Assembly (NCBI GenBank): GCA_965204785.1
Contig: OZ242015.1
Location: 3,490,575 to 3,554,574, forward strand
Direction of reading: 5' to 3'
DNA: 64,000 nucleotides
Source of the DNA: Alphaproteobacteria bacterium
Lineage (GTDB): Bacteria > Pseudomonadota > Alphaproteobacteria > SP197
The translations under genes were made by a program, and so were the position numbers. The notes under the pieces were generated by a model. The model made no database searches. It was not told where the DNA came from and worked only from the letters and a program-made list of their open reading frames with translations. Within the stretch, counting starts at the first letter, position 1. The number at the start of each line of letters is the position of its first letter. This document shows positions 44,950 through 47,115 of this stretch, piece by piece.

Positions 44950-45108
44950 AACGCATGGCAGCGCATCCTTGCGCCATATCGGGGTCAGTCGGTGTTCAAG
45001 CCCATCTTCCCCTGGCTTCAGTCCCACCGGGCATCATGCAGACGCCAGTAGACCGCCGTTCCGACGAGTGGAGAGTTTTCCGGGATCACGTCGAAGGGCG
45101 TGTCGCCA

Positions 45109-47115
45109 TCAGTCGAAGGGCGTGTCGCCATCCTTATCCCGTGCGCCCGGATCGGCGCCGGCGTCGAGAAGCGCCTCGATGGCCTCTGCATGGCCATAAC
45201 GGGCCGCCCGGTGCAGCGGGGTCTCGCCATCCTTATCCCGTGCGTCCGGATCGGCGCCGGCGTCGAGAAGCGCCCCGATGGCCTCTGCATCGCCCGAACC
45301 GGCTGCATCGTGCAGCGGGGTCTCGCCAAAATAATCCCGTTCGCCCGGATCGGCGCCGGCGTCGAGAAGCGCCCCGATGGCCTCTGCATCGCCCAAACCG
45401 GCCGCCCGGTGCAGCGGGGTGATGTCATATTTACTCCGTGCGCCCGGATCGGCGCCGACGGCGAGAAGCGCCCCGATGGCCTCTACACAGCCCGAGCCGG
45501 CCGCAAAGTGCAGCGGGGTGCGGTCATCATGATCCCGTGCGCCCGGGTCGGCGCCGGCGTCGAGAAGCGCCCCGATGGCCTCTGCATGGCCATCACGGGC
45601 CGCCACGTGCAGCGGGGTTCCACCATTATTACCCCGTACGCCTAGATCGGCATTACTCCGTTCGCCCGGATCGGCGCCGGCGTCGAGAAGCGCCCCGATG
45701 GCCTCTGCATCGCCCTTACGGGCCGCCCAGTGCAGCGGGGTCTCGCCATCATCATCCCGTGCGTCCGGATCGGCGCCGGCGTCGAGAAGCGCCCCGATGG
45801 CCTCTGCATCGCCCGAACCGGCCGCCCGGTGCAGCGGGGTGGAGCCATAATTATTCCGTTCGCCCGGATCGGCGCCGGCGTCGAGAAGCGCCCCGATGGC
45901 CTCTGCATCGCCCTTACGGACCGCCCGGTGCAGCGGGGTGTTGCCACGAGTATCCCGTGCGCCCGGATCGGCGCCGGCGTCGAGAAGCGCCCCGATGGCC
46001 TCTGCATCGCCCGAACCGGCCGCAAAGTGCAGCGGGGTGTGGTCAAAATACCCAGTCCGTGCGTCCGGATCGGCGCCGGCGTCGAGAAGCGCCCCGATGG
46101 CCTCTGCATCGCCCGAACCGGCCGCAAAGTGCAGCGGGGTCTCGCTATCCCTATCCCGTGCGCCCGGATCGGCGCCGGCGTCGAGAAGCGCCCCGATGGC
46201 CTCTGCATCGCCCGAACCGGCCGCAAAGTGCAGCGGGGTGTCGCCAGCATCATCCCGTGCGCCCGGATCGGCGCCGGCGTCGAGAAGCGCCCCGATGGCC
46301 TCTGCATCGCCCGAACCGGCCGCAAAGTGCAGCGGGGTGTTGTCATTATGACCCCGTGCGTCCGGATCGGCGCCGGCGTCGAGAAGCGCCCCGATGGCCT
46401 CTGCATCGCCCGAACCGGCCGCAAAGTGCAGCGGGGTGTCGCCAGCATCATCCCGTGCGCCCGGATCGGCGCCGGCGTCGAGAAGCGCCTCGATGGCTTC
46501 TGCATCGCCCAAACCGGCCGCCCGGTGCAGCGGGTTGTGGTCATTATGACCCCCGGCGCCGGCGTCGAGAAGCGCCCCGATGGCCTCTGCATGGCCCTTA
46601 CGGACCGCCACGTGCAGCGGGGTGTCGCCATCATCATCCCGTGCGCCCGGGTCGGCGCCGGCGTCGAGAAGCGCCCCGATGGCCTCTGCATGGCCCTTCT
46701 CGGCCGCCCGGTGCAGCGGGGTGTCGCCATCATTATCCCGTGCGCCCGGGTCGGCGCCGGCGTCGAGAAGCGCCCCGATGGCCTCTGCATCGCCCGAACC
46801 GGCCGCCCAGTGCAGCGGGGTGTCGCCAAAAAACTCAGTCCGTGCGCCCGGATCGGCGCCGGCGTCGAGAAGCGCCCCGATGGCCTCTGCATCGCCCGAA
46901 CCGACCGCCCGGTGCAGCGGGGTCCAGCCATCAATATCCTGTGCGCCCGGGTCGGCGCCGGCGGCCAGGCATTCGCGCACCCGTTCGCCATCCGCTTTCT
47001 CGAAGAAAGCCTCAGTATTCCAGGCATCACATCCCGACGCGGCGCCGGCGGCCTGCCCAAGCGATGCGACGCCGACGATCACGGCCCACCTGACGGCCCA
47101 CCTGATCCATTGCAT
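45109..47115 (-). CDS. Ankyrin-repeat protein, putative secreted/lipoprotein, ~18 ANK repeats (copy 1)
   Basis: The signal peptide [29 protein letters not shown] is lipobox-like. Repeats of consensus [32 protein letters not shown] follow. The C-terminus is truncated at DGDTPFD* by a 22-bp tandem duplication at 45090-45133. The native frame would end at 45018. Confidence 0.8.
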   Translation of the reverse strand: MQWIRWAVRWAVIVGVASLGQAAGAASGCDAWNTEAFFEKADGERVRECLAAGADPGAQDIDGWTPLHRAVGSGDAEAIGALLDAGADPGARTEFFGDTPLHWAAGSGDAEAIGALLDAGADPGARDNDGDTPLHRAAEKGHAEAIGALLDAGADPGARDDDGDTPLHVAVRKGHAEAIGALLDAGAGGHNDHNPLHRAAGLGDAEAIEALLDAGADPGARDDAGDTPLHFAAGSGDAEAIGALLDAGADPDARGHNDNTPLHFAAGSGDAEAIGALLDAGADPGARDDAGDTPLHFAAGSGDAEAIGALLDAGADPGARDRDSETPLHFAAGSGDAEAIGALLDAGADPDARTGYFDHTPLHFAAGSGDAEAIGALLDAGADPGARDTRGNTPLHRAVRKGDAEAIGALLDAGADPGERNNYGSTPLHRAAGSGDAEAIGALLDAGADPDARDDDGETPLHWAARKGDAEAIGALLDAGADPGERSNADLGVRGNNGGTPLHVAARDGHAEAIGALLDAGADPGARDHDDRTPLHFAAGSGCVEAIGALLAVGADPGARSKYDITPLHRAAGLGDAEAIGALLDAGADPGERDYFGETPLHDAAGSGDAEAIGALLDAGADPDARDKDGETPLHRAARYGHAEAIEALLDAGADPGARDKDGDTPFD

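What the first reader, a model, noticed from the sequence alone, without database searches (positions are those of the whole stretch)
45090..45133. Identical 22-bp tandem duplication frameshifts the C-terminus of ANK copies 1 and 3
GTCGAAGGGCGTGTCGCCATCA is duplicated head-to-tail in copy 1 (45090-45133) and copy 3 (49931-49974). It is not duplicated in copies 2, 4, 5 and 6. The duplication makes the ORFs end at ...DGDTPFD* and removes the conserved 22-aa tail. The native frame is still open downstream, to 45018 and 49856. The same indel in two units implies spread by gene conversion. It also looks like a reversible on/off or tail-switching mechanism, a slipped-strand or recombinational phase variation of the C-terminal tail.
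Basis: seen in the sequence. Interest (0 to 1): 0.55.

Follow-up and report, generated by a model that had tools for sequence, protein, structure and literature searches.

The report
Frameshifting 22-bp duplication in ankyrin genes
Two of six neighbouring ankyrin-repeat genes carry the same 22-base tandem duplication, which cuts off the conserved end-cap of the protein; it looks like an ordinary frameshift copied between sister genes, not a demonstrated on/off switch.

Summary
On the minus strand, six tandem genes (c1-c6, 45018-54410) encode exported ankyrin-repeat (ANK) proteins. The 22-mer is doubled head-to-tail only in c1 (45090-45133, 43/44 identical) and c3 (49931-49974, exact). Because 22 = 3x7+1, the second unit is read out of frame and its own first three bases, TGA, become the stop (...DGDTPFD*). 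The intact tail coding sequence remains downstream, out of frame.

The lost 21-24-aa tail is not a recognisable sorting signal. It is the C-terminal capping half-repeat of the ANK stack. It is a family hallmark in distant homologues, AlphaFold2 models it with pLDDT 92-97, and it aligns with the C-cap of DARPins (designed ANK proteins).

Sharing by c1 and c3 is best explained by one origin plus short-tract gene conversion or recombination. The evidence is a four-gamete conflict with a neighbouring 19-bp indel, different flanking haplotypes, no microhomology, and a junction base in c1 that matches other copies rather than c1's own context.

Programmed, reversible phase variation is untested and unsupported. 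There are only two units, no structure-forming DNA, and no strain- or read-level data. A relative carries a heavily frameshifted family member. My verdict is an ordinary frameshift in a concertedly evolving paralogue array, of low interest.

The parts
45090..45133 (-). 22-bp tandem duplication in ANK copy 1. The units are 43/44 identical. The TGA stop is at 45109-45111.
49931..49974 (-). Exact 22-bp x2 tandem duplication in ANK copy 3. The TGA stop is at 49950-49952.
45109..47115 (-). ANK copy 1: truncated ORF of 668 aa with 19 TPLH-type repeat starts, ending in ...DKDGDTPFD*.
45018..45089 (-). Stranded, out-of-frame C-cap coding remnant of copy 1 ([23 protein letters not shown]).
49950..50555 (-). 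ANK copy 3: truncated ORF of 201 aa, ending in ...NNDGDTPFD*.
49856..49930 (-). Stranded C-cap remnant of copy 3 ([24 protein letters not shown]). It is identical to the tail of copy 4 (0/95 differences).
47496..49463 (-). ANK copy 2: intact, 655 aa, with a single 22-mer at 47568-47589.
50948..51727 (-). ANK copy 4: 259 aa, with a single 22-mer (1 mismatch) at 51023-51044. A 19-bp duplication alters its last residues.
52110..53141 (-). ANK copy 5: 343 aa, with a single 22-mer at 52176-52197. It contains a second, internal N-cap module, so it is a fusion of two units.
53652..54410 (-). ANK copy 6: intact, 252 aa, with a single 22-mer at 53718-53739. This is the copy whose structure was modelled.
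49848..49889 (-). 19-bp tandem duplication near the native stop of copy 3. The same duplication is in copy 4 at 50940-50981. It is the marker that conflicts with the 22-bp duplication in the four-gamete test.
50940..50981 (-). 19-bp tandem duplication near the stop of copy 4.
47081..47105 (-). In-frame 12-bp tandem duplication (RWAV) in the signal peptide of copy 1. It is also present in copies 2-4 at 49429-49453, 50521-50545 and 51693-51717, and absent from copies 5 and 6.

Best explanation
A single 22-bp tandem duplication arose at the boundary between the last full ankyrin repeat and the C-terminal capping half-repeat of one gene in a six-gene tandem array. The genes encode Sec-exported ankyrin proteins.

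Because 22 = 21+1, the second unit is read in the +1 frame. Its first three bases, TGA, terminate translation at once. The protein therefore ends at ...DGDTPFD and loses the 21-24-residue cap, a short helical turn plus a terminal helix carrying the invariant L..Y..L motif.

The array evolves in concert. Its 5' and 3' gene ends and its spacers are almost identical, while the repeat cores differ by 10-20%. The duplication was therefore copied into a second paralogue by a short gene-conversion or recombination tract of at most about 55 bp.

The result is two cap-less paralogues. They are probably destabilised or early pseudogenes, tolerated because four intact paralogues remain. The tail could in principle be restored, either by precise excision of one unit or by conversion from an intact neighbour. 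That would be a by-product of repeat instability, not a dedicated switch.

What is shown and what is inferred:
- Shown: the anatomy, the reading-frame consequence, the conservation and predicted structure of the tail, and the mosaic distribution of indels.
- Inferred: a single origin, the direction of transfer, the loss of stability or function, and the absence of programmed switching.
For: - Anatomy and frame.
- Ankyrin identity: Pfam Ank_2 at 1e-172 and 2e-59; Foldseek hits to DARPins and ankyrins with TM up to 0.8.
- The tail is a family hallmark. 39 of the 120 best homologues (35-63% identical) end in TP[FW]D...L.G..YWRL..AR[FW], and none ends at TPFD. L239, Y245 and L248 are invariant in a 15-sequence alignment.
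- The tail is a structural cap. The AlphaFold2 model of copy 6 has mean pLDDT 92; the tail blocks score 97/97/92, with a short helix at 230-232 and a helix at 243-251. phmmer aligns [10 protein letters not shown] with the DARPin C-cap GKTPFDLAI. The tail hits no NCBIfam model.
- Concerted evolution and mosaicism:
  - Spacers and gene ends are nearly identical.
  - The duplication columns differ at 1/44 between c1 and c3, but the 100 bp upstream differ at 10/100.
  - The tails downstream fall into haplotypes c1~c2 (2/76), c3=c4 (0/95) and c5=c6 (0/76).
  - The 22-bp and 19-bp indels show all four combinations among c1-c4.
- The junction base in c1 is T although c1's own preceding codon is AAG. 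A de novo duplication of c1's own sequence would give G (read).
- There is no repeat at a spacing of 22 (TGAT recurs at 23), and DNA folding is unremarkable.
- Decay of this family by indels is seen in a relative: L002 7811-9777 is a family member of about 2 kb broken by many frameshifts.
- Short two-copy tandem duplications are a general indel type in this genome: 38450, 41148 and 62067.
Against: - The stranded tails show no decay (c3's remnant is identical to c4's tail). This fits a very recent event or continuing homogenisation, but it is also what a maintained, reversible state would look like.
- Both truncated ORFs are otherwise intact, so a functional cap-less isoform cannot be excluded.
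- The implied conversion tract is very short.
- No population, read or expression data are available.
Confidence: 0.68

Rival explanations
1. Reversible phase variation. Gain and precise loss of one 22-bp unit, by slippage or recombination, toggles the C-terminal cap on and off in individual paralogues at a useful frequency. This would give the population a mix of capped and cap-less ANK proteins.
For: - A perfect tandem duplication inside an ORF is the substrate of a known reversible switch, the spontaneous duplications in the pneumococcal capsule genes cap3A, cap8E and tts (Waite 2001, 2003, as cited in PMC4022640 and PMC4243769).
- The tail coding sequence is preserved intact downstream.
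- The genes are exported proteins with hypervariable surfaces, of the kind often subject to contingency variation.
Against: - There are only two units of 22 nt, not a hypermutable multi-unit tract.
- PMC4022640 puts the expected reversion at no more than about 1e-5 for a 9-bp duplication.
- The same duplication is fixed in the assembly at two loci.
- Nothing in the sequence promotes slippage (no microhomology).
- The duplication sits in a family that visibly decays by frameshifts in a relative.
- No heterogeneity data exist.
Confidence: 0.08
2. Two independent, recurrent duplications occurred at a mutational hotspot, one in copy 1 and one in copy 3.
For: - The sequence shared by c1 and c3 is confined to about 55 bp, and the flanks on both sides differ.
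- Short tandem duplications are frequent in this genome and in this gene family.
Against: - The end points are identical although no repeat flanks the unit at a spacing of 22.
- The junction T in copy 1 cannot be produced by duplicating copy 1's own AAG|GATGG sequence.
- There is no hairpin or quasi-palindrome that could guide template switching.
Confidence: 0.05
3. Assembly or polishing artefact. The duplication is real in at most one paralogue and was propagated to the other by multi-mapped reads during consensus polishing of this near-identical array, or it is not real at all.
For: - The 3' ends of the six genes are close to 100% identical over at least 100 bp, which is the situation where polishing errors cross between paralogues.
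- The only related long-read assembly seen (L002) has ANK genes full of indels.
Against: - A clean 22-bp perfect duplication is not a typical sequencing error.
- It sits on two different local haplotypes, each with copy-specific SNPs within 12 bp on both sides, so the two loci were resolved separately.
Confidence: 0.1
4. Selected neofunctional isoforms. Cap-less ANK proteins are functional variants kept by selection, for example with an exposed terminal repeat that allows end-on interactions or oligomerisation.
For: - Both truncated ORFs are otherwise uninterrupted.
- The variant is present in two of six copies.
Against: - The cap is the most conserved non-repeat element of the family, and none of the 120 homologues ends at TPFD.
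- Open frames are uninformative here, because alternative frames of these GC-rich repeats are also open for 400-550 codons.
Confidence: 0.08

Closest known systems
Frameshift pseudogenisation with concerted evolution (gene conversion) in tandem paralogue arrays
   Same: - The gene ends and spacers are near-identical while the cores are divergent.
- A derived indel is shared by non-sister copies.
- Neighbouring markers are incompatible in the four-gamete test.
- Intact paralogues remain, so the defective copies are tolerated.
   Different: Nothing essential differs. The only particular point is that the indel is a 22-bp tandem duplication lying exactly at the border between the variable repeats and the homogenised 3' end.
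Pneumococcal capsule phase variation by spontaneous tandem sequence duplication in cap3A, cap8E and tts (Waite et al. 2001, 2003; cited in PMC4022640 and PMC4243769)
   Same: A perfect head-to-tail duplication inside an ORF inactivates or truncates the product, and it could revert by precise excision.
   Different: - In pneumococcus the switching was observed experimentally. From memory of the original papers, independent variants carry different duplications, and reversion frequency scales with duplication length.
- Here one identical duplication sits in two paralogues of a single assembly, and no switching has been observed.
Simple-sequence-repeat contingency loci (for example Neisseria opa CTCTT repeats and Haemophilus tetranucleotide repeats; general knowledge)
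   Same: A change in repeat copy number shifts the reading frame of a surface or exported protein gene.
   Different: Contingency loci have many copies of a 1-7-nt unit, which makes them hypermutable. Here there are two copies of a 22-nt unit.
C-terminal capping repeat of designed ankyrin-repeat proteins (DARPins)
   Same: - The tail begins with the same TPFD motif as the DARPin C-cap (GKTPFDLAI...).
- It is predicted to pack as the terminal helical element of the stack.
   Different: - The natural tail has its own conserved signature (IPxxSPLxGTxxYWRLxDAR[WF]).
- Its first helix is reduced to one turn plus a loop.
- The family also has a distinctive N-cap with two conserved cysteines.

Membership tests
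Ankyrin-repeat proteins (Pfam Ank / Ank_2) | Tandem 33-residue helix-turn-helix repeats with the TPLH...GADxNA signature, above the Pfam gathering score | tested here: met
   Ank_2 scores 561 and 198 bits against a cut-off of 27.3; the repeat period is 33 aa; an ANK fold is predicted, with DARPin and ankyrin-1 as the top structural matches.
Concerted evolution / gene conversion among tandem paralogues | Homogenised segments next to divergent segments, and incompatible distribution of markers among copies | tested here: met
   the tails differ at 0-2 positions between neighbouring copies, against 10-17/100 in the last repeat; the 22-bp and 19-bp indels occur in all four combinations in c1-c4.
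SSR-type phase-variable contingency locus | A hypermutable tract with many copies of a short (1-7 nt) unit or a long homopolymer | tested here: not met
   there are only 2.1-2.2 copies of a 22-nt unit.
SSR-type phase-variable contingency locus | Heterogeneity of copy number within a population or between close strains | not testable with these tools
   No reads are available. The pattern scans of the genome and metagenome collections returned 0 hits. The best protein homologue is 54-63% identical. The closest genome, with TruA 80% identical, has no array at this locus.
Duplication-mediated reversible phase variation (pneumococcal cap3A type) | A perfect tandem duplication within an ORF that abolishes the normal product | tested here: met
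Duplication-mediated reversible phase variation (pneumococcal cap3A type) | Observed reversion by precise excision, with both states present in the population | not testable with these tools
   This needs reads or cultures.
Programmed +1 ribosomal frameshift at an in-frame UGA (prfB type) | A slippery P-site codon (CUU U) before the UGA and an upstream Shine-Dalgarno-like stimulator | tested here: not met
   The sequence reads CCC TTC GAC TGA TGG. tRNA-Asp cannot re-pair on ACU, and there is no SD-like element just upstream. A +1 shift there would restore the tail, but nothing supports it.
C-terminal sorting or secretion signals (LPXTG, PEP-CTERM, GlyGly-CTERM, T9SS CTD, OMP beta-signal) | A match to a curated signal model, or a hydrophobic helix plus basic tail, or a terminal beta-strand | tested here: not met
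   The tail alone has no NCBIfam hit, and the whole proteins give only generic ANK similarity below the cut-offs. The tail is predicted to be helical and packed, with pLDDT 92-97.

The most novel reading that the evidence does not exclude
The 22-bp duplication is one state of a heritable, reversible toggle. The toggle would work by precise excision and re-duplication, or by conversion to and from intact neighbouring paralogues. It would switch the stabilising C-cap on or off in individual members of a hypervariable exported ankyrin family, so that an uncultured, possibly host-associated alphaproteobacterium could vary which ANK binders are stably displayed.
Probability: 0.07. Interest if true: 0.6.

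Novelty: new member of a known kind. Interest (0 to 1): 0.2.

Why it matters
Taken on its own the finding matters little. It is a clean example of a frameshifting tandem duplication spread between paralogues by short-tract gene conversion, and annotation should mark copies 1 and 3 as C-terminally truncated.

The context is more useful. The array belongs to a widespread but unnamed family of exported bacterial ankyrin proteins. The family has a cysteine-containing N-cap, a conserved YWRL..AR[FW] C-cap and DARPin-like hypervariable surface positions. This is the sort of gene family thought to mediate bacterium-host interaction.

If sequencing reads showed the duplication to be heterogeneous, it would be a rare case of duplication-based switching outside pneumococcus.

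Tried and rejected
- **Strain-level comparison.** A degenerate DNA pattern for the tail (which includes the window's own sequence) gave 0 hits in the genome collection and 0 in the metagenome collection. A broader family-tail pattern also gave 0 in the metagenome collection. The 5.8-billion-protein search found nothing above 63% identity.
- **Synteny.** The closest genome by TruA (OY282363.1, 80% identical) has methylase and restriction genes, not ANK genes, next to truA. The locus cannot be compared there.
- **Hairpin- or structure-driven slippage.** DNA folds of the single-copy and duplicated sites are no more stable than shuffled sequence, with z from -0.2 to -0.7. Rejected.
- **Microhomology-mediated slippage.** The only flanking repeat (TGAT) is spaced 23 nt apart, not 22. 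Rejected by reading the sequence.
- **UGA recoding or readthrough.** Intact copies 1-type and 2 themselves end in TGA. Rejected.
- **Programmed +1 frameshift.** There is no slippery site. Rejected.
- **Tail as a known sorting signal.** There is no model hit, and the tail is predicted to be a packed helix. Rejected.
- **Genome-wide gene disruption by short tandem duplications.** I checked whether the 16-bp duplication at 41148-41179 splits a gene. It lies at the stop of rmuC, between rmuC and an SPFH-domain gene, so it does not disrupt either one.
- **Promoter and terminator scan of the array.** Uninformative: 0 promoter-like sites, and the terminator-like hits lie inside the repeats.
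Full report

Yes. The 22-mer GTCGAAGGGCGTGTCGCCATCA (+ strand) is found eight times in the window, against 0.00 expected in dinucleotide-preserving shuffles.
- It is head-to-tail at 45090-45133 and at 49931-49974.
- It is single at 47568, 51023 (one mismatch), 52176 and 53718.
- Tandem Repeats Finder independently reports period 22 with 2.1-2.2 copies at both double sites.

The copy-3 duplication is exact. In copy 1 the two units differ at one base: 45133 is C, so the coding strand reads AAG|GATGG... 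instead of AAT|GATGG....

**2. What are the genes?**

Six minus-strand ORFs lie between truA (44128-44949, Pfam PseudoU_synth_1) and a dapE-like peptidase followed by dapD:

| Copy | Coordinates |
|---|---|
| c1 | 45109-47115 |
| c2 | 47496-49463 |
| c3 | 49950-50555 |
| c4 | 50948-51727 |
| c5 | 52110-53141 |
| c6 | 53652-54410 |

The flanking region is ordinary chromosome, with secA, dnaX, SRP RNA, yidC and rnpA.

All six are ankyrin-repeat proteins: Ank_2 E = 1e-172 for c2 and 2e-59 for c6, with a 33-aa repeat period and 5-19 repeat starts per gene. Each gene has four parts:
- a hydrophobic N-terminal signal sequence (M[QK]WIRWAV...LGQAAGAAS);
- a conserved N-cap, [23 protein letters not shown];
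- a variable number of repeats;
- the tail, [30 protein letters not shown].

The spacers (about 390 bp), the 5' ends and the 3' ends are nearly identical among copies. The repeat cores differ by 10-20%.

**3. What does the duplication do?**

On the coding strand the unit is TGATGGCGACACGCCCTTCGAC. In single-copy genes it is read as (AA)T GAT GGC GAC ACG CCC TTC GAC | GTG ATC CCG..., which gives [11 protein letters not shown].

Twenty-two is 3x7+1, so the second unit is read as TGA TGG.... Its own first three bases become the stop codon, and c1 and c3 end in ...DGDTPFD*.

The rest of the tail is still there, out of frame and undamaged:
- 45018-45089 translates to [23 protein letters not shown];
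- 49856-49930 translates to [24 protein letters not shown].

**4. What is the tail?**

It is not a recognisable sorting signal. It is the C-terminal cap of the ankyrin stack.
- Conservation.
  - A search of 5.8 billion proteins found no near-identical protein; the best hits were 54-63% identical.
  - It did reveal a wide family with the same architecture: signal peptide, C..WN...FF N-cap, ANK repeats, then TP[FW]D...L.G..YWRL..AR[FW] at the very C-terminus.
  - 39 of the 120 best hits end in this motif, and none ends at TPFD.
  - In a 15-sequence alignment L239, Y245 and L248 of the tail are invariant. Two N-cap cysteines (C25, C45) are nearly invariant.
- Structure. AlphaFold2 on that alignment gives mean pLDDT 92 and pTM 0.87. 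The tail blocks score 97/97/92 and form a one-turn helix (230-232) and a terminal helix (243-251) after the last full repeat. Foldseek's best matches are DARPins and ankyrins.
- Sequence match to a known cap. phmmer against PDB sequences aligns ...[19 protein letters not shown] with the last repeat plus C-cap of DARPins (...GADVNAQDKFGKTPFDLAI).
- No signal model. NCBIfam has no model for the tail, and only generic sub-threshold ANK similarity for the whole proteins.

From general knowledge of designed ankyrin proteins, caps shield the hydrophobic face of the terminal repeat, and the C-cap limits stability. I therefore infer that c1 and c3 products are destabilised. This is an inference; it was not tested.

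**5. Why do two copies carry the same duplication?**

Three observations point to one origin followed by transfer.
- Incompatible markers. A 19-bp tandem duplication about 75 bp downstream is shared by c3 and c4 (49848-49889 and 50940-50981). Across c1-c4 the two indels occur in all four combinations: +/-, -/-, +/+ and -/+. This needs either recombination or recurrent mutation.
- Different flanks.
  - The duplicated columns differ at 1/44 between c1 and c3.
  - The 100 bp upstream differ at 10/100.
  - The downstream tails fall into three haplotypes: c1~c2 (2/76), c3=c4 (0/95) and c5=c6 (0/76).
  - Copy-specific SNPs within 8 bp upstream and 12 bp downstream limit the shared tract to about 55 bp.
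- Recurrence is unlikely.
  - There is no direct repeat at a spacing of 22; TGAT recurs at 23.
  - There is no unusual DNA structure (z -0.2 to -0.7).
  - In c1 the base at the unit junction is T, although c1's own preceding codon is AAG. Duplicating c1's own sequence would give G, so the T is a footprint of an AAT-context donor.

The duplication sits exactly where the divergent repeat region meets the homogenised 3' end. That is where conversion tracts must terminate. An origin as an error of repair synthesis at such an end point is plausible, but it is speculative.

**6. Is it a switch?**

There is no evidence that it is.
- The tract has two units only.
- The known precedent is pneumococcal capsule genes, where spontaneous in-ORF duplications revert by excision (Waite 2001, 2003, cited in PMC4243769 and PMC4022640). 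That precedent was established by observing mixed populations. PMC4022640 quotes at most about 1e-5 reversion for a 9-bp duplication.
- I could not obtain any read-, strain- or species-level comparison.
  - All three pattern scans returned nothing.
  - The closest genome by TruA (OY282363.1, 80%) lacks the array at this locus.
- The nearest relatives that share the signal peptide (P0001 and P0079, on long contigs of ENA sample ERZ25068762) also have tandem ANK genes. One member of about 2 kb there (L002 7811-9777) is broken by many frameshifts. Indel decay is therefore normal for this family.
- Short two-copy tandem duplications also occur elsewhere in the window, at 38450, 41148 and 62067. 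Within the array there is a 12-bp one in the signal peptide of c1-c4 and the 19-bp one in c3 and c4. This indel type is a general feature here, not something specific to the tail.
- Restoration of the tail remains mechanistically possible, by excision or by conversion from the four intact donors in cis. I rate a functional switch at about 0.07-0.08.

**7. Alternatives considered**

- Independent recurrence at a hotspot (0.05).
- Assembly or polishing cross-talk between near-identical paralogues (0.10). The copy-specific SNPs hugging the duplication argue against it.
- A selected cap-less isoform (0.08).
- A prfB-like +1 frameshift at GAC UGA would restore the tail, but there is no slippery site.
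- UGA recoding is excluded, because intact copies also stop at TGA.

**8. Verdict**

The frameshift and gene-conversion parts of the interpretation are supported. The phase-variation and sorting-signal parts are not.

This is a new instance of a well-known kind of event: frameshift truncation in a concertedly evolving paralogue array. Interest is low (0.2). The surrounding gene family is the more noteworthy biology: exported ankyrins with special N- and C-caps and DARPin-like hypervariable surface positions.

Noticed in passing
window 45109-54410 (all six ANK genes): Across 57 repeats, positions 1, 2, 3, 5, 10, 13, 14 and 16 of the 33-aa repeat are hypervariable (2.0-3.2 bits of entropy). Most framework positions are at or below 0.7 bits, and the highest is 1.4. 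As I recall the DARPin library design, the variable positions largely coincide with the randomised target-binding positions. This suggests diversifying selection on a binding surface.
   Followed up: partly
window spacers, e.g. 49466-49750, 50558-50840, 51730-52010 and 47116-47400 (+ strand): Each spacer between ANK genes carries, on the opposite strand, a relic reading ...[32 protein letters not shown].... It gives a weak Pfam hit to nitronate monooxygenase (NMO, E = 0.058, profile positions 131-167). The duplicated unit therefore seems to have included a fragment of a neighbouring gene. The c1-c2 spacer copy is additionally frameshifted.
   Followed up: partly
window 52110-53141 (copy 5): Copy 5 contains a second, internal N-cap module (...[27 protein letters not shown]...) after one degenerate repeat. 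It is an in-frame fusion of a truncated unit with the next unit. Database homologues P0075 and P0014 show similar fused modules.
   Followed up: no
window 47393-47421, 49739-49767, 50831-50859, 52003-52031, 53544-53572: A perfect 29-nt palindrome (an 11-bp stem GCCATGGCCTG with a 7-nt loop) lies about 75-115 nt downstream of the native stop codon of copies 2-6 and is absent after copy 1. It has no T-run, so it may be a terminator or a REP-like element.
   Followed up: no
window 47081-47105, 49429-49453, 50521-50545, 51693-51717: An in-frame 12-bp tandem duplication (ACGGCCCACCTG x2.1) adds RWAV to the signal peptide of copies 1-4 but not of copies 5 and 6. The relative P0079 has an analogous 9-bp duplication at its start codon (MKWMKW).
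   Followed up: partly
window 38450-38477, 41148-41179, 62067-62112, 55609-55667: There are other short two- to three-copy tandem duplications outside the array: 10 bp x2.8, 16 bp x2 overlapping the rmuC stop codon, an exact 23 bp x2 upstream of the rnpA region, and an imperfect 26 bp x2.2 inside the dapE-like gene. Short tandem duplication looks like a common indel type in this genome.
   Followed up: partly
L002 7811-9777 (ENA ERZ25068762, contig ctg152740): In a relative that shares the MKWIRWAVIAGV signal peptide, two called genes are really one family member of about 2 kb. It runs from the signal peptide to the ...YWRLHEARWD* tail and is broken by many frameshifts; TRF reports 17.5 repeats with 10% indels. 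This is either a pseudogene or long-read consensus error.
   Followed up: partly
copy 6 residues 25 and 45 (window about 54276-54338), and the family alignment A2: Two cysteines in the N-cap (C..WN and ..CL..GAD) are at least 90% conserved across the family. In homologues the first Cys follows an AxA-type cleavage site, not a lipobox. A periplasmic or extracellular disulfide in the N-cap therefore seems more likely than lipidation, although the window's own copies read ASGC, which is lipobox-like.
   Followed up: no
L003 10700-13300 (OY282363.1): In the closest genome found (TruA 80% identical), the position occupied here by the ANK array holds a DNA methyltransferase-like ORF and a restriction-enzyme-like ORF. 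The site downstream of truA is therefore a variable island in this lineage.
   Followed up: no
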